The notes: generated from the sequence alone by a model not told the origin. A stretch of DNA of 64,000 bases from Naegleria gruberi (GCA_000004985.1 GG738847.1); one strand, 5' to 3'. Numbered from the stretch's first letter, positions 28,637 through 56,301 are shown. Translations and numbers: made by a program.

Positions 28637-28652
28637 AATCTACTAGTAGTTA

Positions 28653-30614: not shown

Positions 30615-32732
30615 TTAATTCAATTTTCTTACAATTAAGGGCCAACCAACTTGTATCACTGTATACTTATGAATGCTTTTTGATTTGTCAGCATCATTTT
30701 CATATTGAGCATATTGTTTGACTTGAGAAATTGCAGAATTCAAAATTGATCTGGCTACAACTTTCTCTTTGGCATGAGTAAGTACTTCCATTTCTAATAA
30801 TTCTTCATCAGTTTGTTTAGATAAATCTTTAAATATATTTTTAAAAATTTGCGGATTCCAATATTCAATATTGGAATATTTTGTTAAAGAATTTGGTCTA
30901 ATATGTTTGAATTCAATTATTAATACTTTTTTAGAAGTTCTTATCACAAGATCAGCACGTTTGATGTATTCCTTATTGTTAGAATTCTTTACATGATATT
31001 CCTTTTCAGCTTGAATTTTCAATTCTTTGTTTCTAAATAAACAATATGCTCTTAATGCAGATTCAATACTTGCTTGTAAACCTCCTTCAGACATTGAATT
31101 GTCATAAATAGTTTCTTGTTTTTCTAAAATATTATTGAGTAACATTCTCAAATTATCTTGGGTAGGTTCATTAATAAAAGTTGATACATCTTTTTCATGT
31201 AGAGATATAAGTCTACGTAACTGCTCTAAATATTGGACTTTTGCAATTTCATTTGGAATTAACAATTGTTTTGGGTTCATCTGTTTTGATGATTCTTTTG
31301 TGAAGGTAACCATACCGTGATAATACATGAATGATAAAGCATTATCACGAATCTTTTGTATATCTTCTTCATTGGATGGTGGATCAATAATCTCTCTTAA
31401 TTTCAGTGAAGGATAAATTGACTCTGTTACTTCTACATAATCTTTTGAAAGTAATTGTTGAATAATATCATTCGATACAACTGATGATGCCAAAGTTGCA
31501 AAAACGTTCTCACTGATCATTGTGTTGGTATCTGTTAATATTGATAATGGAATTTCTTGTTTTTGTAGAACAGCATTTCTGAAAGGTTCATCTTTTACAA
31601 GTTTGTTCAAAAAGAACATTGAAAGAGTTGTGTTGAATAGAGCATGTTTTGAACCAGGAAAATGATAACCTTTATAATACTTTTTCATGGTTGAAATGGT
31701 AATATCTTGATCATTTCCAATAATATCAATGTTATTTAATGCCATTCTCAAATCATTTTCTGTAAAACCAACCAAACCACCAAATATCTTATCAGAGGAA
31801 ATATTACTGGAAACATTATATCCAGATGCATCAGCAAGAGCAATAGGAGTGATACCAGTGATGATACTACGAAAATCTTGTAAACCAGTAGCGGAAGACT
31901 CTTTCAATCTTTCAAAGAAAGAACGAATTGGTGAAGATGTTGGATCTCCTCTCTTTCCTTCAACTATTAATTGATATTTTTCAGGATTTTCAAACATTAA
32001 TTTGTTTGCAAATCTATCATATTCATCAATTAATACCATTAATTTGCCTTTTCTCTTGACTAAAAGTTGGATAAGTTTTTGATAAGTATCAAATGAATCA
32101 TTTTGATTAATGCTAACCTCACCACCCATACCATAACATTCCAAAAATCCTTCAATGGTTGTATTGATTTTTGTGTGAAGTCGTTGATTAATATCATCAG
32201 CAGTACCATCAACTTGAATAGAAAAATCTAACTTTAAAACATAATATTGATTCTTTCCAGGTGTCCAATTATTTTCATCACCAATCCATAAACCAGAAAA
32301 TAATTCATCAAATTCATCTTTCTTGTTAATATCATAATATGATGAAAGCATTGATAATAATAGTGATTTTCCCCATCTCGGAGGACGAACAAAAAATAAT
32401 TGTTTTCCACTTTCTTCTAATAGAGGAATTAAATTAGTTTTATCAACATAAAATTGTTTACTTCTTCTGATGGAAGCAAAATCTGATTCACCATATGGAA
32501 AATATGGCACCAACAAATTTCCGTCACCAATATTTTTAAATTTAATATTTTCAACATTATTTGTTGTTGGTTTTAATGTATTTGAATAGTTTTTAGTTTG
32601 ATTCACTCTATTAATTGTAAACTTGTTAATATCATTAGTTAAATTATTAATTTTTAATATTGATCTGTTGATTTTGGGTGATGCAGTAAATAACTGCAAT
32701 CTATTGATTTTACGAAGGAAGGTATGTTTCAT
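30615..32732 (-). CDS. Predicted AAA-ATPase-like protein with C-terminal PD-(D/E)XK nuclease-like domain (AAA-ATPase_like / PDDEXK_9 architecture, DUF1703-type), 705 aa, apparently intronless
   Basis: Motifs YGESDFASIRRSKQFYVDKTNLIPLLEES...FFVRPPRWGKSLLLSML (hallmark of the 'predicted AAA-ATPase' family) and C-terminal ...DLVIRTSKKVLIIEFKH (PD-D/ExK core); A-rich context before ATG. Confidence 0.8.
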   Translation of the reverse strand: MKHTFLRKINRLQLFTASPKINRSILKINNLTNDINKFTINRVNQTKNYSNTLKPTTNNVENIKFKNIGDGNLLVPYFPYGESDFASIRRSKQFYVDKTNLIPLLEESGKQLFFVRPPRWGKSLLLSMLSSYYDINKKDEFDELFSGLWIGDENNWTPGKNQYYVLKLDFSIQVDGTADDINQRLHTKINTTIEGFLECYGMGGEVSINQNDSFDTYQKLIQLLVKRKGKLMVLIDEYDRFANKLMFENPEKYQLIVEGKRGDPTSSPIRSFFERLKESSATGLQDFRSIITGITPIALADASGYNVSSNISSDKIFGGLVGFTENDLRMALNNIDIIGNDQDITISTMKKYYKGYHFPGSKHALFNTTLSMFFLNKLVKDEPFRNAVLQKQEIPLSILTDTNTMISENVFATLASSVVSNDIIQQLLSKDYVEVTESIYPSLKLREIIDPPSNEEDIQKIRDNALSFMYYHGMVTFTKESSKQMNPKQLLIPNEIAKVQYLEQLRRLISLHEKDVSTFINEPTQDNLRMLLNNILEKQETIYDNSMSEGGLQASIESALRAYCLFRNKELKIQAEKEYHVKNSNNKEYIKRADLVIRTSKKVLIIEFKHIRPNSLTKYSNIEYWNPQIFKNIFKDLSKQTDEELLEMEVLTHAKEKVVARSILNSAISQVKQYAQYENDADKSKSIHKYTVIQVGWPLIVRKLN

Positions 32733-34685: not shown

Positions 34686-36416
34686 ATGTCAAGACAAGAA
34701 GTTAACCAAACCACAACTCAATTCTATGAAATCCACAAAAATTACGATTTGATTCAGGAGGAGAGAATTAATCAGGTGAATTTTCTCATTCCCAATCAAG
34801 AGATTCAAATTTCATCAACTATTCATTCTATAAAACTCTATGATGATGCGAAGAAGGAAGTAGTAATTAATGATGATCGGAATGAAAATATAAATGATCA
34901 GGAAATTAAACAATTGGCAGAGAAGGGAAATGATGTGATGAAAGGACAAGAGGCTTATAAGAATGTTGATCATTTGTTTGTTTTGAATGAATTGCTTCAT
35001 CCTGATGAGTGTTGTCAAATTCTCTCTATTGAAAAGAAGCAAAAAAAGCAATTGGATGAAGTAAAGAGTCTTTCTAAAGATTTCGAATCAATTCAAGCAG
35101 AGTATCCTCCCGAATACAGAAATAGTAGCCGAATTATTTATAATGATAAGGAATTAGCTCAAAGATTGTGGAGAAGAATGAAGAAGCACTTGGTGAGATA
35201 TACATTTGTTAGACCTTATGGATTGGATAATGGTGGACATTGGATTCCAGTTGGAGTGAATGAATGTTTTAGAATGAGCAAGTATGAACCTGGAAATTAT
35301 TTCAAACCTCATGTTGATGGTCAATTTGTGAGAAATACGGATGAGAGAAGTGTTTATACTTTATTGATTTATTTGAATGAGGATTTTACTGGGGGAGAAA
35401 CAAGATTTTTGACAGTTGTTAATAATGTGGAAGAAGGACAAGGTTTGGATTCAAGCAAAAAAGTGAAGAAATTGTCAAGATCTGATAAGAAAATGGCAAA
35501 GAAAAAGTTTGCCAAAGAGGCAACAAAACTGAATCGTTTCAATGACAATCCAGAAAAGAGTTTAAAAGAAAATTCAACTTTACAATTCAAACATTTGTGC
35601 TCAGTTTCACCAAAAATAGGATCTGCAGCAATTTTCAATCATGATTTGTATCACGAAGGATGTCCAGTCACGAATGGTATCAAATACATTCTTAGAACTG
35701 AAATCATGTTTAAAAGAGTTGATTCGAATAGTGTTGTGAAAAATAAGAATGACACTAAGCTCTATAACCAAGTAATGGCCATTCTCAAACAGAGTGATGA
35801 TTTGGAAAAGAAGGGTAAAATTTACGAATCCACAGAATATTACAGAAAAGTTCAGGATTTATTAATAATGAATGGTCACTCCATGTCCTTATTGATGGTT
35901 CCAAAATTTCAAAGAAAATCAAATTTTTCAGATAATCAAACCGAATCTTACGACAATGAGTTGAGTATTCTTCCTGATGAAACCCTCAACCACATATTCT
36001 CATATCTACAAGATTCTGAAATTTGTACATTAATTTTACCTCTCGATAGATATTTTCATTATTTTGGAAGAAATAATCATTTGTGGGAATCATTGTATAT
36101 GCACAGATGGGGAAATAACATCACTGAACTATTGAAACGATTGTACAGAAAGAAAAACTTAGAGCTTGGTCAACTAAATAGCGTCGATAACACAACATCA
36201 ATTGATGAAACTCCCACGCTTGAAAATGATCAAAATTGGTACCATATTTATATAATGAAGAGATATTTCGAGAAGGAATTTGAACCAGTATTTTTGGATG
36301 TTGGATATGATCGTTCTAATTTGTCGAGCATTAGTGGAGAGTTCAAAAATGTGAGATCTCTAATGTACAGAACCAAATTCTCTCAGTATGTACATTTTTA
36401 TATTCGACATCATTAA
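34686..36416 (+). CDS. Fusion protein: 2OG-Fe(II) oxygenase of the EGLN/PhyA prolyl-4-hydroxylase type (N-terminal/central) plus C-terminal F-box domain, 576 aa
   Basis: HxD...H triad and 2OG-binding Arg: KPHVDGQF...TLLIYLNEDFTGGETRF ... AAIFNHDLYHEG...KYILRTEIMF (compare PHD2 HVDNP...CIYYLNKDW...GGILRIF). F-box: LSILPDETLNHIFSYLQDSEICTLILPLDRYFHYF...WESLY. A-tract start context cttaaaaaaaaATG. Confidence 0.8.
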   Translation: MSRQEVNQTTTQFYEIHKNYDLIQEERINQVNFLIPNQEIQISSTIHSIKLYDDAKKEVVINDDRNENINDQEIKQLAEKGNDVMKGQEAYKNVDHLFVLNELLHPDECCQILSIEKKQKKQLDEVKSLSKDFESIQAEYPPEYRNSSRIIYNDKELAQRLWRRMKKHLVRYTFVRPYGLDNGGHWIPVGVNECFRMSKYEPGNYFKPHVDGQFVRNTDERSVYTLLIYLNEDFTGGETRFLTVVNNVEEGQGLDSSKKVKKLSRSDKKMAKKKFAKEATKLNRFNDNPEKSLKENSTLQFKHLCSVSPKIGSAAIFNHDLYHEGCPVTNGIKYILRTEIMFKRVDSNSVVKNKNDTKLYNQVMAILKQSDDLEKKGKIYESTEYYRKVQDLLIMNGHSMSLLMVPKFQRKSNFSDNQTESYDNELSILPDETLNHIFSYLQDSEICTLILPLDRYFHYFGRNNHLWESLYMHRWGNNITELLKRLYRKKNLELGQLNSVDNTTSIDETPTLENDQNWYHIYIMKRYFEKEFEPVFLDVGYDRSNLSSISGEFKNVRSLMYRTKFSQYVHFYIRHH

Positions 36417-42752: not shown

Positions 42753-44432
42753 TTATTCTGATTTTTGATAGACAAAATTTAAATATTGACGATAATTGGT
42801 TGGTGTTAAGGTACTGAATGAATTAAATAGTTCAGATCTGAAATCTCCGAGTGGAGGCAATTCACCATCTTTCAAATTCATTCTTGACATTGCTAACTCT
42901 CCACTCAAAGCTACATAGGAACAGCCAGCTGATGCTGCAATAAGTGGATTGGAACATACTGATGCAAATGCTGCTTGGATGGCTCCTGTCATACATCCAA
43001 CACCTGTTAAATGTTGCAAGTTAGGCTCATTGTGGTAAACGTGAATAATATCAGAACCGTCAGAGATTACATCAACTGGTCCTGTCATACAAACAACACA
43101 GCCAAACTTTTGAGCTAATTCCGAGACAACCTTATCCATCTCTGGGAGATTTGATGAATTGGATTCAGAATCAACACCCTTCAACTTGGCAAATCCAGCA
43201 TTTCCATGAATTCTTCCAATCTCACCATAATTTCCTTTCAATATGGTGATTTTATGATTCAATAAAAGTTCCAAAACAGTTGCTTCTCTTGCCTTTGTAG
43301 CTCCATATCCAACAGGATCGAGAATGACTGGTTTACCCAATTCATTTGCACGTTTAGCAGCCAAATGCATAGCCTTAATTGAATATTCATCCAAAGTTCC
43401 AATGTTAATAAGAACACCACTTGCTATTCCAACCATATCACTAATTTCCTCATGATATTGAGACATTACAGGTGAAGCACCAATTGCTAATAAAGAATTG
43501 GCTGTTTGAGTTGTAACAACATTATTGGTGAGATTGTGAATGAGTGGTCTTGTCTTTTTGATATCCAAAAGGGCTTGTACCATTTCTTCTCTAACTCTTG
43601 CCTTATCATTTGATTGATTCATTTGATAATAATTAATAGTACTTCTCAATTCTCTGGATGCTTGAAGAGCACTTTCAGCTCCAACTACACTTGAAACAAC
43701 AGCCACACCGTCCACACCACATTCCATTACTTGAGAAATATTTTCCTTTCCAATACCTCCTATAGCAACAAGTCCAACATGTTTTCCATTTCTTGTGGTA
43801 TGTCTGACATATGAAACTAATTCTTTGAGACCATCCAAACCAACTGCTTGACCAGCATCTTTCTTTGTAAGGGTTGGGAATATTGCATTTGTACCCAAAT
43901 AATCAGCTCTAACATTGTGTGAAAGAGCTTCATCAACTTGGTCAAAAGTGCCAACTGTCAGACCCAAAATCTTTGAATTACCAATCAGTTTTCTAACATA
44001 TTGAGGAGGTAAATCCTTTTGTCCAACATGAACACCATCAGCATCAATAGCAACAGCCAAATCAACACGATCATCAATCAAGAATGGAACTCCATGTCTT
44101 CTACAAATTTTTTGCAAACTTTTAGCTTGTTCCAACATTTGTCTTGTTGTTAATTGTTGTGGATATCTCTTTTCACGATATTGGATAATTGATGATCCTC
44201 CCTCAATGGATTGCTCAACAGTTTCTTCCAAAGAACGTTTTCCCATCTTTTCTGAAATGTCGGAATCTGTAACAACATACAATCCGTAATCAATTTTGGT
44301 ACTATATGAACATTTTTGAAGAGAATTAAATAGTGATGATGATGGCAGCAGGAATTGTCTTGTAGATTTTTGATGGTTTTCTTGTTTTAAAATGTTTTGT
44401 GTAAGCTTGAGAGTTCTTTTTGAAGTTTTCAT
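42753..44432 (-). CDS. THI6: Bifunctional thiamine-phosphate diphosphorylase (ThiE, N-terminal) / hydroxyethylthiazole kinase (ThiM, C-terminal), THI6-type fusion, 559 aa
   Basis: ThiE motifs LYVVTDSD...IIQYREK...GVHVGQKD...LGTNAIFPT..K...VAIGGI; ThiM motifs IHNLTNNVVTTQTANSLLAIGASPVMS...LINIGTL...GKPVILDPVGYGAT...ILKGNYGEI; aaaaaaaATG start. Confidence 0.9.
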   Translation of the reverse strand: MKTSKRTLKLTQNILKQENHQKSTRQFLLPSSSLFNSLQKCSYSTKIDYGLYVVTDSDISEKMGKRSLEETVEQSIEGGSSIIQYREKRYPQQLTTRQMLEQAKSLQKICRRHGVPFLIDDRVDLAVAIDADGVHVGQKDLPPQYVRKLIGNSKILGLTVGTFDQVDEALSHNVRADYLGTNAIFPTLTKKDAGQAVGLDGLKELVSYVRHTTRNGKHVGLVAIGGIGKENISQVMECGVDGVAVVSSVVGAESALQASRELRSTINYYQMNQSNDKARVREEMVQALLDIKKTRPLIHNLTNNVVTTQTANSLLAIGASPVMSQYHEEISDMVGIASGVLINIGTLDEYSIKAMHLAAKRANELGKPVILDPVGYGATKAREATVLELLLNHKITILKGNYGEIGRIHGNAGFAKLKGVDSESNSSNLPEMDKVVSELAQKFGCVVCMTGPVDVISDGSDIIHVYHNEPNLQHLTGVGCMTGAIQAAFASVCSNPLIAASAGCSYVALSGELAMSRMNLKDGELPPLGDFRSELFNSFSTLTPTNYRQYLNFVYQKSE

Positions 44433-44717: not shown

Positions 44718-47700
44718 TTAGTGATATCTATCAGATTCTTGTGATTGTTGAGTAAGCAATCTTTCATCTTGGGTAGTGAAAGAGGCAGCAGGAGGGTTCA
44801 TAGATGGATTGTATCCACTTGGGAATAATGGATAAATTTGTTGACCAACATTAGCTGCTCCAGCCTAAAATAAGGTGTTAGATTTACAAAATTCAATATC
44901 AAAATTACTTACATAGGATGTAACAGGAATGAGAGGATTCATAGCAGAAGCCATTTGCATAGAGGCCATTGAAGAAGCAGGGTCAAGCAATGGAATAGAG
45001 GAAGTCAAACCATAACCAATGCCATATCTGTGGTTGGTGAACTTCTTTGGTTTTTGCAACTTGACATTACTAATCTTCAAGTGAGACAAAGCACCTTCAA
45101 CAATAAAGTTCTTTTGCATGTAATTATCATTCTTAAAGTGGTGCAATAATAAATTCCACAATGGTTGCTTAGATAATACCTTAGCATTACCAATAATAAT
45201 AAGTCCACATCTAGCACGAGTGAGAGCAACATTCAAACGTCTTGGATCATTCAAGAAACCAATACCTTGGTGATCGTTAGATCTGACACAAGACAAGATA
45301 ATGAAATCCTTTTCTCTACCTTGGAAAGAGTCAACACTGGCAACTTCAATTTCCTTGTAAAGATCAGCATCAGCAGTACCAGCTCTTTGCATATGACTAA
45401 CACAGAAAGCTCTTTGACCTTCATAAGGAGTGACAACACCGAGTTGTTGAGGTCTAACACCAGCCTTTAGCATCTTAGTAACAATCTTTTCTACAATTTC
45501 AGCTTCAGTTCTATTCAAGAATGAAGTACCACTAGCACTGTATTCTTCTTGACTAACAGAATTGTAGAAGAACATTGGAGCATCTGGATGAGGCCATGGG
45601 AAGTCAAGGTGAATTAATCTGTCTTCCTTCTTTACACCATTTTGAAGAGTACCTTCATAGAAAGTATTAGATGGGAATTCTGACAAACATGGATGCATTC
45701 TGTATTGAACTTGGAGACGCATTGGTCTAATACCCAACATGACAAGACGTTCAAATAATGATCTTGACAAGCCAGCACGAGCTGCCTTTTTACACATAAT
45801 AACTGGACCCAATTGACAGTGGTCACCAACGAGAACAACTTGTTTGGCACCCTTAACGATAGGAATTAAACATTCTGGTTCAGTAGCTTGTGTAGATTCG
45901 TCAATGAGGACATATTTAAATTTGAATTCTCTCAATCTGACATCACCTGCACCAACACAAGTGCAACAAATTACATCAGCTGCCTTCAAAATATCTCTTT
46001 CAGTGGATCTCTTCAATATCTTTAAACGTTTCTCTTCAGCAACAGATAATTCTCCATCATCTTCCTTCTTTTGTTGGAGTCTTTGATATTCTTCCTTTTC
46101 CTTAGTCTTATAGAGACGTAATTGATAGTGCAATGTAAGGAAATCAACAGGAGAATTAACAGCTTCTCTGCTTCTGGCACACAATCTTACAACCTTCAAA
46201 CCTGTAGCATGGATCTTTTCAGCTAATTGATCTACAGCAACATTAGAAGGTGCACAAACAAGAACTCTATGTTTGTGCTTGTCAACTAGGTGATAGACAA
46301 TAGAAGCACTGGTAACTGTTTTACCTGTACCAGGTGGACCTTGAATGAGGGAAAGTGGTCTTTGCAAGGCATTCTTAACAGCTTGAATTTGGAAATGATT
46401 GAGTTCTGGAAGTCCAGGAGCAGAATATTTCTTTGGTAAATTAACCTTGAGAACAACTTCCTTTGTAGATTGATTTGGATGTCCAAGCATTTTGTGATAA
46501 AGATAGCTGCTAATACAATTTTCATCAATAGCAAAAGTTCTCATTGCATTTTGCATTCTTTCAAAAGATGTTGGTTTCCAAACAAAATCAACACTAAAAC
46601 CAGTGTTAAAATTAATTGGAGCAGTCTTCTTTTTCAATTCCAAAACAACTTCTTCTTCTTGATTGAATTTGATAACATGACCAATGCCTTCCCAATTAGA
46701 ACCATCTCTTATGTAACGAAGTCTGAGTTCATCACCAGGAACAAGACGTAATTCATTATCATCACGAGTGAAATAAAAGTAAGCCAATAATCTGTGACTA
46801 CTTGTAGTTTCCCAGTGGACTGCAATATTATCCTTAGTTTGGGATTCTTTCATTCTCTTGTCATATTGGGCCTCCAATTGAATGAGAGGGCTAAAAACAG
46901 ATTGATAATGGTATGCATCTTCGTAGAAGAATTGAACAGGAAGAGGATCATCATCAATACCTGGTTTTTCCAAATCATCAATTGAAGCATCAGTATTGCT
47001 TTTCCACAATTCTTCCAATTTGTTAATTTGTTGGGTGGTAACCTTTCTTCCTCTGTTCTTTTCTTCATCAGGTTCTTTGACAAGCCAAGGTAATAATTGA
47101 CGATCTTGAATTAATGGTAACCATGAATCAACATCCCAATCCATTCCTTTCAAGCTATTATCATGCAAGCAAGGTTCTCTGCACAAAAGAACAACTACAG
47201 AATCATTCTTTGCAGGAATAAAACCCAACAAGAAGACATTTCTACATCCACAATTATAACATTCAAGAACAGTATCTCCCAAGTTAGATTCAGGATGTAA
47301 GCTAACTTCCTTGTGTTTTGATTTTACCAAGTGATGAACAATGTGAGAACCATTTGAACCACCTCTACCATTGCAAAACCACTTTTGGCAAATATTACAT
47401 TTAACAACACAAGCAGGATCATGAATTGTACAATACTTGCAAGCATGTTCCGGAAGCTTCTTTTCTAAAACTTCTTCATCCTCTTCATCAAAATTAAGAG
47501 GAGTAGCATACTTGTCAATAAATGAGGTCAAATCATGAGTTTCTTTCTTTTTCTTCTTTTTAGTAAGAGAGGAAGAGCTAGTACTTGATTTAATACCCGA
47601 ACTTGATTGTAATGAATGTTGAGAGAAGGTACTTGGTTGAGTACTTTGTTGAGTATTTAGGAAATCTTGGGAATAAAGTTGAGATTGTGTTGTTGGTTGG

Positions 47701-47966
47701 AATTGACTACTTTGTTGAGTATTTAATTCCTCTACATATTCAAAATTATTATTTCCGTTACTACTAGAATCTTCTGATGAATCGCTTTGGTCATCATTCA
47801 AACCTTCATCATATTCATCATCATCTTCCCCAATAAAATTGGAAGTAACAAATTGGTTTGATTGTGAAGGTTCATTCTCTGGATAGTCATCATCTCCATC
47901 CTCTTGGAATTGGTAGGTGATTACGTTTTGTGAAGAGCCCTCTCCATCACCGTAAAAACCATTCAT
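44718..47966 (-). CDS. UPF1: ATP-dependent RNA helicase UPF1 (nonsense-mediated decay), 2 exons: join(47966..44913, 44864..44718), about 1066 aa
   Basis: CH zinc-knuckle domain ([24 protein letters not shown]...[11 protein letters not shown]...CYNCGCRN), SF1 helicase motifs [64 protein letters not shown]-track tail '[15 protein letters not shown]' is intron read-through; downstream exon gives S/Q-containing C-terminus ...[12 protein letters not shown]. Confidence 0.9.
44865..44912 (-). other. Spliceosomal intron of UPF1 (48 nt, GTAAGT...aatCTAACacc...TAG, phase 0)
   Basis: Donor TCC TAT|GTAAGT; branch-like CTAAC; first AG downstream used; downstream frame continues to a TAA stop. Confidence 0.75.
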
Positions 47967-48137: not shown

Positions 48138-51100
48138 TTATTCATCTTTTCTTGGTGAGGTTTCTTCAACTTCCAAATCTCCTTCTTCATCTGAAACGGC
48201 TCCTCCTTCAGAGTTTTGGTCATCTTCAAATCCACCCTCATTTCTCAATACATTTTCTCTAACAATTTCCATTAGATCCTCTTTAGATAAGAGACCTCTT
48301 TCGTGGTGATGATCTTTCAAAAGGTAGGTTGAACACATACCCTTTCCTTTCACATCCAAGTTTCGTTCTTCAAATTCTAGACCCAAATCGTGTACTCTTT
48401 CATAGGAAGGTCTTGATAATTGGATACGACCTGGTTTTGAATTTGATTCCATTCTCGAGGCTGTATTAATAGTATCACCCCAGAAATCATAGGCAAACTT
48501 TTTAGTACCAATTACACCTGCAATAACAGGTCCTGTATTGACACCAATTCTGATATTAATTTGAGGAGTGCTTTCAATATCATTGACATTCATACAGTTT
48601 GCAAAGAGTCCCTTATTGTAATTACGAATAACAGTGAGAGTGTCAATACTGAACCGAAGCATTCTTTCAGGGTGATCTGATTGAGAATTTCCGTGAATAC
48701 CACCAACACAAAAGTATGCATCACCAATTGTTTTGACCTTCTCCAAGTGATACTTGTCAGTTAATGCATCAAATTCATTCACAATTGCATTCAGCATCAA
48801 AACTAATTCATTGGCTTGCATGTTACTTGAAATTCTTGTAAATCCAACCATATCAGAGAAAAATACTGAAACATCATTAAACTTTTCAGCAATAAATGTT
48901 TCACCTGTTTTTAACCTCGCAGCAACAGCATCTAAAAATGTTAAATTATAAATAAAATAATTAATATAAACATACCAGGCATAATATTTCTTAATAAGGC
49001 TTCAGATTTCTTCTTTTCTTCAGCAAGAAGGGCATTTTGCTTCTTTTCAGGGGTAATATCCTTAATGAAACAGGAAATAACTGGCTTTCCATTGAATGAT
49101 GTAACAAAAATATTGAGCTTGGATGAGAAGGACGACCCATTCTTTCTCATACACTCAACTTCAATAGTTTCTCCTTTTTGAGCAGCAGAGTTTGTACTAA
49201 GGAGGAAATCGACTGATTTGGCAACTTTCTTTCCCTCGCTTGCATCAAACAAAGAATATAGAGATGCACCAGCAACTTCATTTGCTTGAACACCAAACAT
49301 TCTCTGAGCAGATGGATTGATATACTCGAGACTAAAGTCATCGTTTGATTGCTTACAGAGACAAACACCATCAACAGCCGAGTCGAGAATACCAGTCAAC
49401 TTTGAAGTTGAATCATCCGTAACCTTCTTCTTTGAGAATCTATTGACAGCGTTTGGTAATTGGTGATTAAGGACAAATGATTTGAGTTCATGTGAGGATT
49501 CAATTTGATCTTCTGGAATGTAGTTCAACATCATTCTTAATTGCTTTTGATTACTTTCATAATTAAGAACTGTATTGTGAATCAAGTAGGCAAGTATAAT
49601 TGTAGATACAGCAGCAAATACTGTATAAATTAATATTAAGGTCAAATCATAAACAGTATTTGCAATGATAAGTTCACAAATTTGAACAAGATACAATGTA
49701 ATACTCTGAGTTTTTCTTGTAAGAGTGACCAAATTGGAAAATGATACTGGCTCTGTATAGATCTTTAGGTAATCGTTAAACCTTTTCATATTAACCATGT
49801 GAGCTGATACATCAGCAGACAAACCAACATAATCCACACATGAAGTAACATTTGTTAAAACAGATTCTGAACAATTAGTTCCCTTCAATATAGCATCTAC
49901 TTCAGGGTAGACTCCAACTAATGGATCAACACCTTGTGATGTATCACCATAGAATAAACTGTTCCAGCTACTGTAAAATGAGGGATATAAGTTATCCACC
50001 AATTTTGAAATTCCTACAACTTCATCTTGGCTTAGTAAATGTGAGGGTGTTATGGACATATTGTACTTGGAGAAGGTGGTGTAGAGGAATGTTTCTCTAA
50101 TAGAAAATTCCATAAGTTGCAATGTGCTCATTAAGCTAATTCCATCTCTGATGCTATACATATTTTGAAGAATGGTGTTTGCTTGATTCTTCAAATCTAG
50201 GAAAGCAACCACTAAAGCTATACAGCAAATAACTGTCAATATTATGGAAGAGGCAGAAACAATGTACTTTGGATTGGAAAATTTGGAGGGCAAACTTCCC
50301 AAGCCGTCATCATCAACTTTCTTTGACAAGTCATGGAATACCTTACCAGAAATATCTTTTGGAATGACTTTTGAATACATTCTGATAGCCCTCTCCAATA
50401 ATCCCAACCTAATAAAGGAAAATATGAAAAATAGAACACACAATGAAAAATATGTTGCTATGGCTACAGCAAAGTATTTCAAGAACAGATCTTGACTTCC
50501 AACTGATGCAGTACCCACACTAGTAATGAGAGTACTACAGAAAGTCTGGTAAGCAGTGGATGCAGTCAATCCATTGAGCCATAAAAACATGAATGAGAAT
50601 GTACTAGTTTCAGTAAGTAAATAATTCTTTTTTTCCCATTGTCTATCAAAATTTTCAAGTTCTGCATTCGTGATATCAATAATAGATGAATTTACAACAG
50701 TAGGAACAATAAAGAGAGTAGTATTTTCCTGTAGCTTTGGATAGATCAAATGGTGGGCAGGTTTGGAAAACTCTGTGTAAATTTGCTTTGTTAGGTCTTC
50801 TTGGAGTACTGTTGATCTCATGTTGGCGAGAATTTGTCTTGATTCTAGCCAAAAGTTTGTAGTTTTTGTTATGTCAACAGCTGCACCAGGATCATCTCTT
50901 GCAAAATACATTTGTCTCATTCTCAACTTGTTCAATCCATTCAAAACTGCTACGGCTGGTAAGCAAACAGTATCAACCAGAGGAACATAAGCAATAGTAT
51001 TTCCAACAAGTTGTGTTTCCAAGACGATACTTGAAACCAACAAACCTAATCCAATTACAATTAATATGACATAGAATACTTTCAATATAAGGTTAGAGGT

Positions 51101-53218
51101 TGGATTGGAAAGGGCGATGTTAATCATTGAATTCTTCTTTTTCACATCATCGATGGCAGTTCCTAACATATTTTCAATATCTTCAAGAGTTTCCTCAGCT
51201 CCCAAGTCTCTCTGGAACTGATCATGGCTCATTGAGATTGAACTTCTAGAACCAGTTACAGACATATTATTAGGTAAAGGAACAATTTTGTTTTTGGAAG
51301 CTCTGATACCAGCATTGTCTAGTTTACGAGCAATTTTAGCTTTGCGTCTACCTTCATCCTCCTCAATAATTGATGCCTCTGCAAAGAGCTCTTCTGCCTG
51401 ATCCTTGTTGAAACAAAGTTCTTCCAAGAATTTGCCATACATTCTCAAGAGATTCTTGTCATTCTTTCCTGAACTAGTACTGAGAAGGTTGACAAATATT
51501 TCATTACTTTTTTCGGTAAGTTCAGCAATACATCTATTGATGGTTTCAATCTTGATGAGATCTGTATTTTGAGCAATCAATTCTTTCCAAAATTGTTTGT
51601 GTAAAGCATATAGCCTCTTTTGTTGTTTTTCAAGTTTTTCAATGATATTCTTGTGTTCTGCTTTTACTATTGACTCAGAGTCTTTGGTATTGGCAGAGTC
51701 AAGGTCCTTTAATCTCTGTCTTAATTTCAATCTAGTAATAATATTTGGTCTTTGTTTCAATCCTCTTGTCAATAGTATGTTTGCGTAAGTGGTATTATTT
51801 GGTTGACCTTGGCAATAGTATGAATAGATCATTGAACATAACATTAATAATGGTGGATTGACAAACATCTTATTTGCTGAAATTCCTTTTGTAAATGAAA
51901 TTGCTAAAGTAATATCATCATATTCATCTGCCTTTCTCTTTGATTTGAAGGCAAATCTAAGGAACATGGTCAATTTTCTTAGATCATTATTGGACTCAAA
52001 GTATTGCATCAATGAAACAGCTTCCTTCTCCATGGCATCCATTTCATCATGATGAGCATGTTCGTCGTTGTTCATTCTGGCATAGAAATTACTTCTGACA
52101 GTATGGCAAATTACTCTTGTATAAATTTCCATTATAACAAAGCCAATAACAAAGCAAATCAAAATAAGTGCTAGACAAACACCACTCATTCCTAGTCCCA
52201 AATCCCAAGCTGATGTTGTATTGACAGAGGAACTGATAATTGCACCCAAGCTGGATCCAACTCTAGCAAATGCAATACCTGCAAAGATTGAGTTGTTTAC
52301 TCTGCTAAAGAATGGTGTCTCAATAAATAAGATGGGAACATAAAGTGCGGAAAACACCAAATGGAAAGCAGCTCTAACATACATTAAACTAGATGGAATA
52401 AAGTAAGGGATTACCAATTGAATAGTGTTTGAAACAATGAGTGGTACCTTATAGAAAGTGCTATCGGCAGTGAATAAAATTGAACTCAATGGATTGCATT
52501 CATTGGATGTCAAGACACTGAATGAAGTGATACCACAGATTACCAACATATTCAACAAGCCGAATACCAAAAAAATAATGTTCATCGTTCCGTAACACTT
52601 CTCTGTACTGTATCTTGTGAGTGTTCTGAATACTTGTGCATGGTCAACCATCAAGTTGTCACTACAGTCTGCAAAACTAGATATTACAAATGAGGCGAAC
52701 ATACTAGTGTAGAGCACTACTTTAGCCCACACAATGATAACTGGCCTAATCTTTTCTGTTGATGGGCTGGCATTTTCAATTGCCTTCCTTGCAAACATGA
52801 AATAATAACCAAAAAAAAGTACATTTAGAACCAAACTAGCAAACATAATCACTACTGCAGCAATATATGGCAATCTGAAAACTGCTAATGTGATAGGATA
52901 GTTCAAAATTTCAAATATCCATGCACCGTATTCTCCCCAATTATAGTTTCCTATTGTTGGAATAAGTATGGAACAATAAATGAGGTAAACATTGAGAACA
53001 GCATCCAATAGAAATGATTTCCACCCTTTCGTTTGTCTTCTGTCTTGAAGGGAAATTAAAGCATCAGTTAGTGTTGTAAAGACTGAATTGAAAGCTGACT
53101 TCTTCTCTTGCTCAATTGCTGTTAATGATGTTGAGGCAGAGGACTCAATTAGTGACCTAGCACCCTTTCCAACCTCACTTCTGGGACCTTTCTTCATCGC
53201 TAGAACAGACTGATTCAT
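48138..53218 (-). CDS. Membrane-embedded sensor adenylyl (class III nucleotidyl) cyclase: about 1,150-aa polytopic N-terminal region, 2-TM-flanked sensor loop, PAS domain, single cyclase catalytic domain; 2 exons: join(53218..48976, 48931..48138), about 1678 aa
   Basis: More than 12 predicted TM helices; PAS-like LTGILDSAVDGVCLCKQSNDDFSLEYINPSAQRMFGV...; cyclase domain spans the intron: ...LLRNIMP|D AVAARLKTGETFIAEKFNDVSVFFSDMVGFT...KVKTIGDAYFCVGG...IRIGVNTGPVIAGVIG...YDFWGDTINTASRMES; both metal-binding Asp present, Lys/Asp specificity pair suggests ATP. Confidence 0.85.
48932..48975 (-). other. Spliceosomal intron of the cyclase gene (44 nt, GTATGT...TTTAAC...TAG, phase 1) located at the N-terminal boundary of the cyclase domain
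   Basis: Exon 1 ends CCT G|GTATGT; exon 2 begins AT GCT GTT..., giving P-D-AVAARLK... and restoring the canonical cyclase N-terminal motif; ORF-track tail GMFILIILFII is intron read-through. Confidence 0.8.
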
Positions 53219-53301: not shown

Positions 53302-56301
53302 CTAATGAAAAGATTCATTAAAGTTGTCAAGAAGAAATGTCTTAATCTCTTGCAATGTTCTGTCCGAAAAGTTAAAGTTGTAAAATTTAGAAAGAGCAGA
53401 ATGAATTTTGGCGCGTCTTTGGCTGTCAGCAACTTCTTTCGTTGATGGCTCCAATATTTGTAATTGCGTTGTATTCATCAATTGTTTGATCTCTTCAGCT
53501 TTGCTTTCGGCCACTCTTATCACATCAATCGGGAAATCAGCAAGTTTAGCAACTTCAATACCAAAGCTATTACTGTTTTCTGTAATGGCTTCTTCGTTAT
53601 CTGTTACTATTTGATATAACATGACAAGCCTATTGTCAATAATCCTATCAAACATTAATGGCCAATATTCAAAATAGTACTTACTTTGAATCCATTCTTT
53701 CATTACAAATTGCTGGGAACTTCTCAATTAAAGCTCTCAATTCGTGGAAGTGAGTTGCAAACAAAGTGAAAGCATTTGTGCTGTCCATTAGGTGTTCAAT
53801 GATTGCATAAGCAAGACCAAAACCGTCATAAGTCTATTTCAATAATATATTAAAAAGGTAAATAAAGAAAGAGATTTTCTATCAATACCTACCGATGTTC
53901 CTCTTCCCAACTCATCTACAATAATAAGAGATTTAGAAGTAGCTGTTGACAGGAGTGCAGCAGTTTCTAACATTTCAGCCATGAATGTACTAATGCCTCT
54001 TTGAGTAGAATCTGATGCACCAACTCTGGAAAGAATTGCATCTCTTACAGTGACGATACTACCCTCTCTTGCAGGGATAAAACAACCAATTTGAGCCATA
54101 ATCACATTGATTGCCACTTGTCTGATAAATGTAGATTTACCTCCCATGTTTGGACCAGTTATTAAATGTAATTGATGTTGTGAGCGATCTAAGATGCATG
54201 TATTCTCCTTAAAGTCTACAGAATCCTGAATCTCTACAACAGGATGTCTACAATCGTAAAGAATAATTTCTTCTTCTTCATAATCTATTGGTCTTATGAT
54301 AGGTCTAGTGTATGGAATGGCAGCATTTACAGAAACAGATGCAAAAGAGATGAAAATATCAATACTTGCCAAGGTTTCTCTGAGTTGTGTAAATGCAGGT
54401 GCAAAAGTTGTTACAACTTCTCTTATTTTTTGGAGAGTCTCTTGAGATTTGCTTTCATATTGCTCAAGAATGTCAATATATGATTTGGCTAGTTCCTTCA
54501 ATGTATCATTAGTAAACTTGACATCTGATTTAGACTGTGGACCTATTAAAGTATAATTTGTTGCACCGGTCAAAGCATTTGCCTGTGCCTTTTTAACTTT
54601 GAAACAAACACTCTTTTTTGTCATTTCTAAAAACAACTCATTAACATTCAAATCATTTTCAACTGATTTACATTCTTCATCACATTGTGAAATAATTTCA
54701 TTGAGATCATTCATCAATTTTTCTAGTTCTGCATCAATTTTACAATTAATTCTGTATTCATGTTTCTCGGTTGCCTCCATATCTATAATACTGATGACCA
54801 TTTGCAAAAAACTTTGTAGATCAGCATAATTAGAATCTAAATGCACCATCAAGTCCATATACAAGTTGTCTTTTACAAATGATTTTTCATTCCTGACTCT
54901 GTTCATAACTTCTTTCACGGCAGGAACTTGCTGTACACAAATATATAATTTTACAATATCTTCTATAGTAACTCTCTGCTTTACAACCCTGATTAAAATC
55001 TTATCAAGATCAGGAACCTTTTTAAGAAGCTCCTTGATTTCTTCTCTTAATTCGTTTTCTTCAGCGAATATTTGAACCATGTCTAATCTTTTCTCGATTT
55101 CTGAATGACTTGTTAGAGGTTGTCTAATCCATTCTCTCAATAATCTCGCTCCAGGTCTAGTTACACATTGGTTTAATAAACCAAACAGAGAAGTATTCTT
55201 GGATCTATCGTTTGGTGGTGGTAAGATGTTCAATGAAGAGACACAAGTACTATCTAACTTCATGAATAAGGATATTTGTTGGGATTTTGTTTTGTAGTGT
55301 GAATAATTATTAATATCATCCAATAATTCTAAATAATCTAAAAGGGCCTGAGTAGAATTTGCAACATGTTCTTCATTAAATTCTAAATTCATAACTCTTT
55401 CTTCACCAGTTAATCTACAAATGTCAGCCTCCAAAGTACTTTTCTTTACAAAATCTGATTTTTTACGTTCAGTTTCTAGAATGTTACTTCTTCTGAGAAC
55501 GTCCTTAAGTCTTTCAGAGTCAGGATCATTCTTTTGATAAAATACGAGAGCTTCCTTTGTTTCAATTTGAGAAAGAGTAGAATCCAAGTTTGCCAACTGA
55601 TCACTATCGGTGAATGAACAGAATCCAATAGTTCTAAGTGTAGTATCAGCGAATGCCAGGCCTATCTTTCTCTCATTTAATTCCTTCTTGATATAGATGG
55701 CACACACCACACCTGTTTGAGAATCATTTTCCAGAAGCTCCTCGAATTCTTGTAAATTACCTGGAGAAGCAGATTTTAAACATTCATATTTATCTTCACT
55801 CCAAATTTCCACTCTCTTTCCGTGATTCAATAATAAACCTCTGACATATTGATGGAAGTGTGACTGCTTCAATGTAATGAAAGGAAGCCCATTATATTTT
55901 TTACCATCTTCTGTTTTATAAGGATTAGTACGATCAATAACACCTTTGTGTGTAAAAAGTTTAAAGTATCCTGTTTTACAAAAGTGTCTATCAATAAACC
56001 ATGCATCATGACCATGAACGTCATAAGTAAATTGCGATTCAGGATCATCTGCTTTGGCATCCCTTTTTTTTCTTTGAATAAAGACAATAGTATTTTTCTT
56101 TGCTTCATTGGTCTCTATCTTCAAATACATGTCAACAAATTTTTGGTTTTCTGTTGTGACTACTTTTGTTTCATCCTCTAATTGTGGTGTTGTTGATTCA
56201 TCGTCACTATCTTCCTTTTTCTTTTTACTTTTACTACTAGAAGCCGATGATGCTTTCCGCTTGGTTCCTGTTGTGGTTGTTGATTTTTTGCGTGGAGGCA
56301 T
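53302..56301 (-). CDS. MSH2: DNA mismatch repair protein MSH2 (MutS homolog 2), 3 exons: join(56301..53893, 53833..53685, 53644..53302), about 966 aa
   Basis: N-terminal mismatch/connector region [14 protein letters not shown]...[34 protein letters not shown]; Walker [41 protein letters not shown]...FATHFHEL across intron 1; C-terminus [11 protein letters not shown]...[27 protein letters not shown] matches the MSH2 C-terminal helix-turn-helix region. Confidence 0.9.
53645..53684 (-). other. MSH2 intron 2 (40 nt, GTAAGT...CATTAAT...GATAG, phase 2)
   Basis: Exon 2 frame hits TAA immediately after donor; splicing joins ...NERMDSK to [11 protein letters not shown]... in frame. Confidence 0.75.
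53834..53892 (-). other. MSH2 intron 1 (59 nt, GTAGGT...TTTTAAT...ATAG, phase 0) splitting the conserved [12 protein letters not shown] motif
   Basis: Read-through gives premature stop (…[18 protein letters not shown]); spliced product restores the universally conserved MutS motif. Confidence 0.85.

What the first reader, a model, noticed from the sequence alone, without database searches (positions are those of the whole stretch)
48138..53218. Unusual sensor adenylyl cyclase: giant polytopic domain + two-TM-flanked extracytoplasmic loop + PAS + single class III catalytic domain, with an intron exactly at the catalytic-domain boundary
Seen in sequence: one continuous minus-strand ORF of 1,414 codons with many hydrophobic helices. 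A ~190-aa hydrophilic segment (roughly residues 960-1150) lies between two TM helices. After it comes a PAS-like segment, then a 44-nt GTATGT intron, then a complete cyclase-homology domain. That domain has both metal-binding Asp (FSDMVGFT, IGDAYF), the Lys (KVKTIGD) and Asp (YDFWGD) purine-specificity pair, and the transition-state Asn/Arg (TINTASRME). Established knowledge: this is neither the fungal Cyr1 type (LRR-PP2C-cyclase, soluble) nor the metazoan 12-TM pseudo-heterodimer. It is also not the Blastocladiella rhodopsin-guanylyl cyclase. A TM-sensor loop-TM-PAS-output layout is typical of bacterial one-component/chemoreceptor-like sensors. With a single catalytic domain it must homodimerise. 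Inference: a ligand- or environment-gated cAMP-producing receptor of a type not characterised in fungi. The intron at the PAS/cyclase junction is consistent with assembly by domain shuffling. A second, degenerate cyclase-like fragment lies at 28653-29000, hinting at a paralogous family.
Basis: partly seen in the sequence, partly recalled or inferred. Interest (0 to 1): 0.78.

Follow-up and report, generated by a model that had tools for sequence, protein, structure and literature searches.

The report
Naegleria 12-TM PAS adenylyl cyclase
This is a real, spliced gene for a large membrane-bound cAMP-making sensor enzyme, but it comes from a Naegleria-type amoeba rather than a fungus, and it is one more member of a big, already sequenced but unstudied family in those amoebae.

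Summary
The sequence observation holds. The minus-strand gene runs 53218..48138 in two exons joined by a 44-nt GTATGT...AG intron (48975..48932). It encodes 1,678 aa with Pfam TPR_TmcB, PAS_9 and one complete class III cyclase domain. All catalytic residues are present, with the Lys/Asp pair that specifies ATP.

- The organism is a Naegleria-like heterolobosean, not a fungus. The neighbouring UPF1 is 89% identical to N. fowleri.
- There are two TM-flanked ~185-aa extracytoplasmic loops, not one. Both are predicted four-helix bundles. The protein has about 12 TM helices: an 8-TM block, a cytosolic TPR region, then 2 x (TM-bundle-TM).
- The intron lies 14 residues upstream of the catalytic domain, inside the conserved LLxNILPxxVAxxLK linker. 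Two paralogues lack it, and bacteria carry the same PAS-linker-cyclase cassette uninterrupted. It is therefore not evidence of domain shuffling.
- The architecture is not unique. At least 24 clusters at 50% identity share it, and every named one is from Naegleria or Willaertia and annotated only as hypothetical.

Best reading: a homodimeric receptor-type class IIIa adenylyl cyclase. The signal it senses is unknown. Novelty is modest: a new member of a sequenced but uncharacterised family.

The parts
48976..53218 (-). Coding exon 1 (residues 1-1414 plus the first base of codon 1415); start codon at 53218
   Evidence: ORF list and sequence. An environmental orthologue fragment, P0174, aligns at 73% identity beginning exactly at this Met. 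The upstream gene's stop codon lies only 84 nt away.
48932..48975 (-). 44-nt intron, GTATGT...TTTTTAG, phase 1, splitting codon D1415
   Evidence: Sequence. The junction peptide is conserved without gaps in N. gruberi P0001 and in AC9 C2. Two paralogues lack an intron here.
48138..48931 (-). Coding exon 2 (rest of codon 1415 to residue 1678, plus the stop codon)
52070..53023 (-). N-terminal block of about 8 TM helices (residues 66-383), with a conserved Cys-containing beta-hairpin loop at 185-208
51314..52045 (-). Cytosolic all-alpha TPR-like region (residues 392-635), containing Pfam TPR_TmcB at 508-623 (window 51350-51697)
   Evidence: Pfam E 4e-15, 56 bits against a cut-off of 27. Present in 27 of 29 long family members. 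Helical in the model.
50411..51091 (-). TM9 - extracytoplasmic helical bundle 1 - TM10 (residues 710-936; loop 729-917)
49580..50254 (-). TM11 - extracytoplasmic helical bundle 2 - TM12 (residues 989-1213; loop 1008-1194).
   Evidence: Family-conserved C1116/C1127 pair and N1115-C-S/T sequon. No detectable sequence relationship to bundle 1.
49052..49399 (-). Cytosolic PAS domain (residues 1274-1389)
   Evidence: Pfam PAS_9, E 5e-13. The closest solved PAS domains are LOV-type (YtvA, PpSB1), but the flavin-binding Cys motif is absent.
48891..49045 (-). Helical linker / cyclase-transducer-like element (residues 1392-1428: KKQNALLAEEKKKSEALLRNIMP|DAVAARLKTGETFIAEKF), interrupted by the intron
   Evidence: Conserved in the family consensus. 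Aligned to AC9 C2 and to a bacterial REC-PAS-cyclase on L001.
48315..48890 (-). Class III (IIIa-like) nucleotidyl cyclase catalytic domain (residues 1429-1620)
   Evidence: Pfam Guanylate_cyc, E 1e-50. Best solved relatives are AC9/AC8/AC5 C2 and the mycobacterial 'Adenylate cyclase' entries 5o5k and 4p2f. Catalytic residues are conserved.

Best explanation
The locus is one two-exon gene of a Naegleria-like heterolobosean amoeba. It encodes a 1,678-aa receptor-type class IIIa adenylyl cyclase that belongs to a large paralogous family.

Shown:
- The domain order is: cytosolic N-terminus; an 8-TM block; a cytosolic TPR_TmcB region; TM9, an extracytoplasmic helical bundle and TM10; a short cytosolic loop; TM11, a second helical bundle and TM12; PAS; a helical linker (LLxNILPxxVAxxLK); and a single catalytic domain.
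- That domain carries both metal Asp residues, the ATP-specifying Lys/Asp pair and the Asn/Arg transition-state pair.

Inferred:
- Two chains form a head-to-tail catalytic homodimer with two symmetric active sites that make cAMP.
- The two disulfide-stabilised, glycosylated ectodomain bundles bind an external ligand or sense a physical cue.
- The resulting movement of TM12 passes through its cytosolic helical extension, the PAS dimer and the coiled-coil linker, and re-orients the catalytic dimer. This is how bacterial four-helix-bundle receptors and the PAS-coiled-coil-cyclase part of soluble guanylyl cyclase work.
- The 8-TM/TPR module is an additional regulatory or scaffolding unit of unknown input.
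For: - Gene model and splice.
- Domains.
- Catalytic residues, conserved in up to 31 of 35 family sequences.
- IIIa-type similarity. The best solved relatives are AC9/8/5 C2 (E about 1e-59 to 1e-52) and homodimeric mycobacterial cyclases (E about 1e-44).
- Family. 125 clusters at 50% identity match residues 30-1225, and 51 of them at E<=1e-30, many collinear over the whole region. Of 29 long members, 27 have TPR_TmcB, 27 have PAS_9 and 24 have the cyclase. All named ones are Naegleria or Willaertia.
- Organism: UPF1 is 89% identical to N. fowleri.
- Topology. Twelve hydrophobic helices, an even number that places the N-terminus, TPR, PAS and cyclase on the same side of the membrane. The family-conserved Cys pairs and N-x-S/T sequons checked (in the two bundles) lie in predicted outside loops.
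- The PAS-linker-cyclase cassette as a functional unit also occurs in bacteria (L001: 37% identity over window residues 1231-1618).
- Pfam's family name ties the TPR module to Dictyostelium TmcB. One paper describes TmcB as regulating the cAMP pathway during sexual development (PMC12750705, citing Muramoto et al. 2005).
Against: - No expression, enzymatic or ligand data exist for this protein or, as far as the literature searches went, for any family member.
- The PAS domain has no recognisable cofactor motif.
- Topology rests on hydropathy and AlphaFold2, not on a dedicated predictor or an experiment.
- Dimerisation is inferred from class III enzymology and was not modelled.
Confidence: 0.7

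Rival explanations
1. Transport-coupled cyclase. The polytopic part would be primarily a channel, transporter or flippase, with the cyclase fused to it. Precedents are the ciliate/Plasmodium K+-channel-adenylyl cyclases and the apicomplexan P4-ATPase-guanylyl cyclases.
For: A very large membrane portion of about 12 TM helices precedes the cyclase. One weak cyclase-domain hit in the first search is a Babesia P4-ATPase-cyclase (P0003), which shows that such fusions exist in protists.
Confidence: 0.1
2. One reading: a novel fungal ligand-gated adenylyl cyclase assembled by exon or domain shuffling, with the intron marking the PAS/cyclase seam.
For: An intron does lie between the Pfam PAS and cyclase matches. 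The architecture is indeed unlike Cyr1 or metazoan 2x6-TM cyclases: there is one catalytic domain and no LRR or PP2C match.
Against: The organism is Naegleria-like, not a fungus. The intron splits the conserved linker 14 residues upstream of the domain. ORF pieces P0257 and P0261 of two paralogues read through this site and break elsewhere, after ILNAAV, CVGG and FFSDM. A bacterial REC-PAS-cyclase has the same seam sequence uninterrupted, so the cassette is older than the intron.
Confidence: 0.03
3. A guanylyl or dual-specificity cyclase rather than an adenylyl cyclase.
For: Public records name several family members 'guanylate cyclase domain-containing protein'. The Pfam family covers both activities. 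The solved receptor guanylyl cyclase ANPR1 scores E 6e-42.
Against: The purine-selecting positions are Lys1481 and Asp1563, as in the C2 domain of mammalian adenylyl cyclases and in Rv1625c. By established class III enzymology, guanylyl cyclases carry Glu and Cys/Ser/Gly there. These two residues are near-invariant in the family (K 29 of 29 and D 26 of 27 aligned residues). The best solved matches are adenylyl cyclases.
Confidence: 0.07
4. A decaying or non-functional paralogue (pseudogene) in a rapidly expanding family.
For: No orthologue above 50% identity was found in N. fowleri, N. lovaniensis, N. gruberi or Willaertia. The best full-length hits are 31-34% identical. The family is clearly turning over.
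Against: The 5,037-nt frame is fully open after removal of one canonical intron. All catalytic residues, the conserved Cys pairs and the family motifs are intact. An environmental orthologue fragment is 73% identical at the N-terminus, with mostly conservative changes.
Confidence: 0.05

Closest known systems
Uncharacterised Naegleria/Willaertia 'adenylate and guanylate cyclase catalytic domain containing' proteins (e.g. N. gruberi P0001, 1,700 aa; N. lovaniensis XP_044555414 and XP_044555706; N. fowleri XP_044567394)
   Same: They are collinear over 98% of the length and have the same Pfam set (TPR_TmcB, PAS_9, Guanylate_cyc). They share the conserved ectodomain cysteines, the same linker and the same catalytic residues.
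   Different: Overall identity is only 31-34%, rising to 51-59% in the PAS-cyclase part. No orthologue closer than 50% was found apart from a 135-aa environmental fragment. Intron positions differ.
Mycobacterial Rv1625c/Cya-type membrane adenylyl cyclases (6 TM + one class IIIa domain, homodimer) and mammalian membrane adenylyl cyclases (AC9/8/5)
   Same: The catalytic domain is of class IIIa type, with the conserved helical element just before it and Lys/Asp ATP specificity. Like Rv1625c, a single domain carries all the catalytic residues, which implies a homodimer (enzymology from established knowledge).
   Different: The membrane part has about 12 TM helices arranged 8 + 2 + 2, with two large ectodomains and a cytosolic TPR region. 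It is not a compact 6-TM bundle. A PAS domain is inserted before the linker. There is one catalytic domain, not the mammalian C1/C2 pair.
Bacterial PAS-coupled class III adenylyl cyclases (e.g. the REC-PAS-cyclase on metagenome locus L001), and the PAS-coiled-coil-cyclase half of soluble guanylyl cyclase
   Same: The order is the same (PAS, then 'DIT.EKK...LL.N.LP..VA..LK', then the catalytic domain) and the seam sequence is near-identical. Identity is 37% over window residues 1231-1618.
   Different: The bacterial protein is soluble and has a receiver domain as its input. Soluble guanylyl cyclase has an H-NOX haem input and is a GTP-specific heterodimer. Here the input is a 12-TM receptor.
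Bacterial four-helix-bundle periplasmic sensor domains (Tar/Tsr 4HB_MCP, PilJ/McpN, NarX/NarQ, TorS, and the double-bundle NIT domain of NasR)
   Different: Sequence identity is 5-15% and no Pfam match is found. The fold is generic, and designed bundles score alike. Here two different bundles sit in one chain, each on its own TM hairpin. No HAMP domain follows.
Dictyostelium TmcB (tiny macrocysts protein B), the source of the Pfam name TPR_TmcB
   Same: The shared TPR_TmcB domain scores above Pfam's curated threshold. TmcB is reported to regulate the cAMP pathway in sexual development (PMC12750705, citing Muramoto 2005).
   Different: Whether TmcB shares the 8-TM block and the ectodomain bundles, and whether it lacks a cyclase, could not be checked here. 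No Dictyostelium protein was retrieved by any search.
Dictyostelium ACG and trypanosomatid receptor adenylyl cyclases
   Same: Protist receptor-type cyclases with an extracellular sensor and a single intracellular class III domain acting as a homodimer (PMC9928731 text; otherwise established knowledge).
   Different: By established knowledge (not tested here), those have only one or two TM helices and a non-bundle ectodomain (CHASE-like or periplasmic-binding-protein-like). They have no PAS, no TPR and no 8-TM block.

Membership tests
Class III nucleotidyl cyclase (Pfam PF00211) | Catalytic-domain profile match above the curated threshold | tested here: met
   172 bits against a cut-off of 21.9, E 1e-50, profile positions 3-182 of 183.
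Class III nucleotidyl cyclase (Pfam PF00211) | Two metal-binding Asp residues, an Asn/Arg transition-state pair and a phosphate-binding Arg | tested here: met
   D1441, D1485, N1570, R1574 and R1542 are present and conserved in the family alignment. They are aligned to AC9.
Adenylyl (not guanylyl) specificity | Lys and Asp at the two purine-selecting positions | tested here: met
   K1481 (KVKTIGD) and D1563 (YDFWGD). Enzymatic specificity itself cannot be tested with these tools.
Class IIIa subclass | Closest relatives are the mammalian membrane cyclases, receptor guanylyl cyclases and Rv1625c, with the conserved helical transducer element immediately N-terminal to the domain | tested here: met
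   The top solved hits are AC9/8/5 C2, mycobacterial Cya and ANPR1. The AC9 alignment starts at LLRNIIPYHVAEQLK. No formal phylogeny was made.
Metazoan membrane adenylyl cyclase (2 x 6 TM, C1 + C2) | Two catalytic domains in one chain forming a pseudo-heterodimer | tested here: not met
   A single Guanylate_cyc match in 1,678 aa.
Rv1625c/Cya-type bacterial membrane cyclase | A hexahelical membrane anchor directly followed by the linker and the catalytic domain | tested here: not met
   About 12 TM helices with two ~185-aa ectodomains, a TPR region and a PAS domain in between.
Naegleria/Willaertia TmcB-PAS-cyclase family (unnamed) | Collinear full-length similarity together with TPR_TmcB + PAS_9 + Guanylate_cyc | tested here: met
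   One collinear BLASTP alignment, residues 27-1674 against 57-1687 of P0001. 51 clusters at E<=1e-30. Architecture counts are 27, 27 and 24 of 29.
TmcB family (Pfam PF25474) | TPR_TmcB profile match above the curated threshold | tested here: met
   56.3 bits against a cut-off of 27, E 4e-15, residues 508-623. Similarity to Dictyostelium TmcB outside this domain was not tested.
Bacterial 4HB_MCP / NIT / PilJ-type sensor domains | Sequence-profile membership | tested here: not met
   No such Pfam family at E<=1. Identity to the structural matches is 5-15%.
Bacterial 4HB_MCP / NIT / PilJ-type sensor domains | An antiparallel four-helix-bundle ectodomain continuous with the flanking TM helices | tested here: inconclusive
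LOV photoreceptor PAS | The flavin-binding GxNCRFLQ motif with the adduct-forming Cys | tested here: not met
   Aligned to YtvA and PpSB1 at E about 3e-4, but the motif positions read GASLYSLF.
Fungal Cyr1-type adenylyl cyclase | Ras-association, LRR and PP2C domains before the cyclase; soluble or peripheral protein; fungal host | tested here: not met
   No LRR or PP2C match. About 12 TM helices. The host is a heterolobosean.

The most novel reading that the evidence does not exclude
The Naegleria/Willaertia family may define a distinct class of eukaryotic receptor adenylyl cyclase. In it, two non-identical extracellular four-helix bundles (packed like a NIT-type double bundle) and a TmcB-type 8-TM/TPR module jointly gate a bacterial-type PAS-linker-cyclase cassette. 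If Dictyostelium TmcB shares the same membrane module, the genetic link between TmcB and cAMP signalling would have a mechanistic explanation: the module would be an ancient cAMP-pathway sensor, fused to its effector in heteroloboseans.
Probability: 0.2. Interest if true: 0.6.

Novelty: new member of a known kind. Interest (0 to 1): 0.35.

Why it matters
Naegleria genomes carry roughly 80 or more cyclases, and these are assumed to be environmental sensors (PMC9928731). None of this architecture appears to have been studied. The genus includes the lethal pathogen N. fowleri, which has several paralogues of this family.

Knowing that the family is a 12-TM, dual-ectodomain, PAS-coupled, ATP-specific homodimeric cyclase gives a concrete, testable model for how these amoebae could turn external cues into cAMP. 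The candidate processes (an assumption, not tested) are encystment and the amoeba-flagellate switch. It also gives defined soluble ectodomains for ligand screening.

For the scan itself, the main value is corrective. The finding is a normal member of a lineage-specific expansion, not a fungal oddity, and the intron carries no evolutionary message.

Tried and rejected
- Exact-sequence look-ups of UPF1 and of P0001 found no recorded gene. The spliced protein was not accepted for look-up. The source species and the intron positions of the closest homologue therefore stay unknown.
- The third word-indexed search, using the family alignment, returned only P0001 plus unrelated PAS and cyclase proteins.
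- The AFDB Foldseek library was unavailable, so I could not test whether Dictyostelium TmcB shares the membrane module.
- Foldseek against the PDB for the double-loop model gave nothing at E<=1e-3.
- Internal duplication of the two TM-bundle-TM modules was tested and not detected: BLASTP E 0.7 and hhalign probability 9%.
- The LOV/blue-light sensor idea for the PAS domain was rejected because the Cys motif is absent.
- A metagenome scan for an orthologous locus found none. The scan with a smaller alignment returned mostly cyclases that look bacterial (only L001 and L006 were inspected). These helped with the cassette argument but not with intron conservation.
- Literature searches for functional work on Naegleria PAS or transmembrane cyclases found only genome-level counts. 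The Naegleria genome paper and the TmcB paper are not held.

Full report
WHAT IS IN THE SEQUENCE

Only 28637-64000 of the window is real DNA. Positions 1-28636 are N, and there is a 50-N gap at 57393-57442.

On the minus strand, ORF 48941..53218 (1,425 codons) and ORF 48138..48851 (237 codons) are separated by a short AT-rich stretch. Removing 48932..48975 joins them into one open frame of 5,037 nt, which encodes 1,678 aa plus a stop. The removed stretch is 44 nt: GTATGTTTATATTAATTATTTTATTTATAATTTAACATTTTTAG. Exon 1 contributes 1,414 codons plus one base, so the intron is phase 1 inside codon D1415.

The splice is not just formally possible:
- The joined peptide ...EALLRNIMP|DAVAARLKTGETFIAEKFNDVSVFFSDMVGFT... 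aligns without gaps to the best homologue, N. gruberi P0001 (...ENLLRNILPDAVATKLKNGETFIAEKFADITCFFSDMVGFT...).
- It also aligns to the start of the C2 domain of bovine AC9 (LLRNIIPYHVAEQLK).
- Unspliced, the first ORF terminates 11 codons into the intron, and the second ORF would start after the first metal-binding Asp.
- The neighbouring MutS-family gene has what look like introns of about 40 and 59 nt (read from GT..AG boundaries, not verified by homology). A 44-nt intron is therefore ordinary here.
- The start codon at 53218 is supported by an environmental protein fragment, P0174. It is 73% identical over residues 1-117 and its similarity begins exactly at this Met. The stop codon of the upstream gene lies 84 nt away.

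DOMAINS

Pfam finds three domains:
- Guanylate_cyc at 1429-1620 (E 1e-50).
- PAS_9 at 1283-1389 (E 5e-13), with weaker matches to other PAS models.
- TPR_TmcB (PF25474) at 508-623 (E 4e-15, 56 bits against a cut-off of 27).

No Cache, CHASE, 4HB_MCP, NIT, HAMP, LRR or PP2C family appears at E<=1.

The catalytic domain is closest to the C2 domains of AC9, AC8 and AC5 (E 5e-59 to 9e-52) and to the mycobacterial 'Adenylate cyclase' entries 5o5k and 4p2f (E about 1e-44). Receptor guanylyl cyclases come next. This is the class IIIa pattern.

- Metal Asp: D1441 (FSDMVGFT) and D1485 (IGDAYF).
- Purine-selecting pair: K1481 (KVKTIGD) and D1563 (YDFWGD).
- Transition-state pair: N1570 and R1574 (TINTASRME).
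- Phosphate Arg: R1542.

All of them are conserved wherever the domain is present in a 35-sequence family alignment. By established class III enzymology, Lys/Asp at the two selecting positions predicts ATP. A single domain carrying every catalytic residue must act as a head-to-tail homodimer.

The PAS domain is most similar to LOV-type PAS domains (YtvA, PpSB1; E about 3e-4). The flavin-binding NCRFLQ motif is replaced by SLYSLF, so it is not a light sensor of that kind.

MEMBRANE ANATOMY

A 19-residue hydropathy scan and two confident AlphaFold2 models agree on about 12 TM helices. The models were built on family alignments: residues 40-700 (pLDDT 86.2, pTM 0.81) and residues 690-1260 (pLDDT 84.4, pTM 0.81).

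The predicted layout is:
- Eight TM helices in residues 66-383. An outside beta-hairpin at 185-200 lies in the loop that holds C185 and C208, at the two conserved Cys positions of the family consensus (FxDC...RFPxxxC).
- An all-alpha TPR-like region at 392-635.
- TM9 (710-728), loop 729-917, TM10 (918-936).
- A 50-residue cytosolic loop with a conserved IPK..GKIYH motif.
- TM11 (989-1007), loop 1008-1194, TM12 (1195-1213).
- A helical extension of TM12 into the cytosol.

So there are two TM-flanked loops of about 185 aa, not one.

Both loops are predicted as antiparallel helical bundles continuous with their TM helices. Loop 1 has an additional beta-hairpin.

The even helix count puts the N-terminus, TPR, PAS and cyclase on the same (cytosolic) side. 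The family-invariant features fall in the predicted outside loops, as expected for extracytoplasmic domains: the Cys pairs C752/C894 and C1116/C1127, and the sequons N843-x-S and N1115-C-S/T.

The two bundle modules show no detectable sequence relationship to each other (BLASTP E 0.7; hhalign probability 9%).

WHAT THE FOLDS RESEMBLE

- Then bacterial periplasmic sensor bundles: McpN (12.9), a sensor kinase from Anaeromyxobacter (12.9), PilJ (12.3), PcaY (12.1), TorS (11.6), NarQ (11.2) and Tar (10.6).

De novo designed bundles, talin and catenin score in the same range, and sequence identity is 5-15%. The honest statement is 'four-helix-bundle ectodomains placed as in bacterial receptors', not membership of any of those families.

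WHOSE GENE IT IS

The best full-length homologue is a 'predicted protein' of Naegleria gruberi. It is 1,700 aa and 32% identical in a single collinear alignment, 27-1674 against 57-1687, with the same Pfam set.

The intronless UPF1 gene immediately downstream (44865-47966) is 89% identical to N. fowleri UPF1 and 81% identical to that of Willaertia magna. The next hits drop to about 60-70%.

An exhaustive HMMER search of 1.84 billion cluster representatives with residues 30-1225 found 125 clusters at E<=1e-3 and 51 at E<=1e-30. Many are 1,400-1,800 aa long and collinear over the whole query.

Every cluster that carries a name is from N. gruberi, N. fowleri, N. lovaniensis or Willaertia magna. 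They are annotated only as hypothetical or 'adenylate and guanylate cyclase catalytic domain containing protein'. Of 29 long members, 27 have TPR_TmcB, 27 have PAS_9 and 24 have Guanylate_cyc.

The organism is therefore a Naegleria-like heterolobosean with about 33-35% GC. The species is not determined. The gene is one paralogue of a large lineage-specific expansion.

No orthologue above 50% identity was seen apart from the 135-aa fragment P0174, so this particular paralogue is fast-evolving or lineage-restricted. The PAS-cyclase part is much better conserved (51-59% identity to paralogues) than the membrane part (about 20-30%).

THE INTRON AND 'DOMAIN SHUFFLING'

The intron lies 14 residues upstream of the Pfam cyclase match. 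It sits inside the conserved helix LLxNILPxxVAxxLK, which the family consensus, AC9 and bacterial cyclases all share. This corresponds to what the literature calls the cyclase-transducer element of class IIIa/b cyclases (the term is used in PMC10622942; the assignment rests on my own knowledge).

Two paralogue clusters could be checked indirectly, because intron-naive gene callers split them into ORF pieces:
- P0257 reads ...LPEAVANRLKAGETFIAEKFNDITCFFSDMVGFT... without a break. Its gene breaks instead after ILNAAV and after CVGG.
- P0261 reads ...LLLNILPLPVAIRLKQGETSICEKFNDLTIFFSDM and breaks only there.

The intron position is therefore not shared within the family.

A metagenome scan with a small family alignment returned hundreds of cyclases that look bacterial; only two loci were inspected. 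One of them, L001, lies next to a response-regulator-type gene on a contig that looks bacterial. It encodes a 473-aa receiver-PAS-cyclase whose seam (...IRDITERKKAEEALRVEREKSERLLLNVLPGSIASRLKQGENMIADNF...) matches window residues 1231-1618 at 37% identity.

The PAS-linker-cyclase cassette is thus an old functional unit, and the intron is a later, paralogue-specific insertion. It gives no support to assembly by exon shuffling.

HOW IT MOST LIKELY WORKS

Shown:
- One spliced gene.
- The domain order.
- A complete catalytic apparatus with the ATP-type selecting residues.
- Extracytoplasmic hallmarks on both loops.
- Helical-bundle predictions for both loops.
- Membership of the family.

Inferred:
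- The protein is a homodimeric receptor adenylyl cyclase.
- The ectodomain bundles detect an external ligand or physical cue.
- Displacement of TM12 and its cytosolic helical extension is relayed through the PAS dimer and the coiled-coil linker to the catalytic dimer, changing cAMP output.

This combines the logic of bacterial four-helix-bundle receptors with the PAS-coiled-coil-cyclase relay known from soluble guanylyl cyclase and bacterial PAS-cyclases.

The role of the 8-TM/TPR module is open. The only lead is that Pfam names the TPR after Dictyostelium TmcB. One paper describes TmcB as a regulator of the cAMP pathway in sexual development (PMC12750705, citing Muramoto et al. 2005). I could not read the original paper or retrieve TmcB itself.

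I put 0.7 on the overall statement. The gene and enzyme part is nearly certain. The sensing route is roughly even odds.

RIVALS

- Guanylyl or dual specificity, 0.07: contradicted by the K/D pair.
- Decaying paralogue, 0.05: the frame and all motifs are intact.

THE SECOND 'CYCLASE-LIKE FRAGMENT'

At 28653-29000 (+), frame 2 reads ...ISIAFNASKEQSMHEERAVKACVDLSSRLADLQ...FRLAIYVQQCLCGNVGTNDKR.... Pfam gives no hit at E<=0.1. A profile I built from six cyclase domains aligns it in register with the middle of the domain at 9.2 bits, p about 4.5e-5 for this single comparison.

It may be a degenerate cyclase remnant. The pattern resembles the GDxxxAxFGAP style rather than the GDAYFCVGG of the main gene, so it is not good evidence for a local paralogue. 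It abuts the N-filled part of the window and cannot be completed.

NOVELTY AND SCORE

The architecture is absent from the literature I could search. That literature only counts Naegleria cyclases: 'at least 81 cyclases' in PMC9928731 (other searches). But dozens of proteins with the same architecture are already in public proteomes with automatic domain annotation.

The finding is therefore a new member of a sequenced, uncharacterised family: modestly interesting for cyclic-nucleotide signalling and for Naegleria biology, but not surprising. Interest 0.35.

The most novel reading still open is that the family is a distinct receptor-cyclase class whose TmcB-type module explains the Dictyostelium TmcB-cAMP link. 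I give that about 0.2 probability and 0.6 interest if true.

Noticed in passing
window 1-28636 and 57393-57442: The first 28,636 bases of the window are N, so the real sequence starts at 28637 (a contig or scaffold edge, or padding). A 50-N gap lies inside ORF 56403-57494.
   Followed up: yes
window 28653-29000 (+): Degenerate cyclase-like reading frame at the very edge of the real sequence. It has no Pfam hit and scores 9.2 bits (p about 4.5e-5) against a home-made cyclase profile, aligned to the middle of the domain. Its motif style differs from the main gene.
   Followed up: partly
window 30615-32732 (-): A 705-aa ORF with Pfam AAA-ATPase_like (PF09820, E 8e-42) and a weak PDDEXK_9 nuclease match at the C-terminus. 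From my own knowledge this pairing is typical of prokaryotes, so it may be a laterally acquired gene in this amoeba.
   Followed up: no
window 34686-36416 (+): A 576-aa ORF that combines a 2OG-Fe(II) oxygenase domain (residues 196-335) with an F-box-like motif (427-471). This is an unusual hydroxylase/F-box fusion, reminiscent of the Skp1 prolyl-hydroxylation pathway of protists.
   Followed up: no
window 42753-44432 (-): Bifunctional thiamine-phosphate synthase + hydroxyethylthiazole kinase (TMP-TENI + HK), arranged as in THI6.
   Followed up: no
window 44865-47966 (-) and 53302-56301 (-): The cyclase gene is tightly packed between an intronless UPF1 helicase gene (172 nt downstream; 89% identical to N. 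fowleri) and a MutS-family (MSH-type) gene. The MutS gene's stop is 84 nt upstream, and it appears to have two short introns (about 53834-53892 and 53645-53684). All three genes are on the same strand.
   Followed up: partly
L001 2156-3577 (+); L006 2022-6068 (+): Metagenome loci that look bacterial. Their receiver-PAS-cyclase (473 aa) and binding-protein-multi-PAS-cyclase (1,348 aa) proteins share the PAS-linker-cyclase seam of the Naegleria family almost motif for motif. This hints at a bacterial origin of the cassette.
   Followed up: partly
family alignment A1/A2 (window residues 937-988 and 1214-1260): Two strongly conserved cytosolic motifs of unknown function: IPKxxxGKIYHxL between TM10 and TM11, and LRxMLNYxPxxxxDxNExLxNFxL just after TM12.
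   Followed up: no
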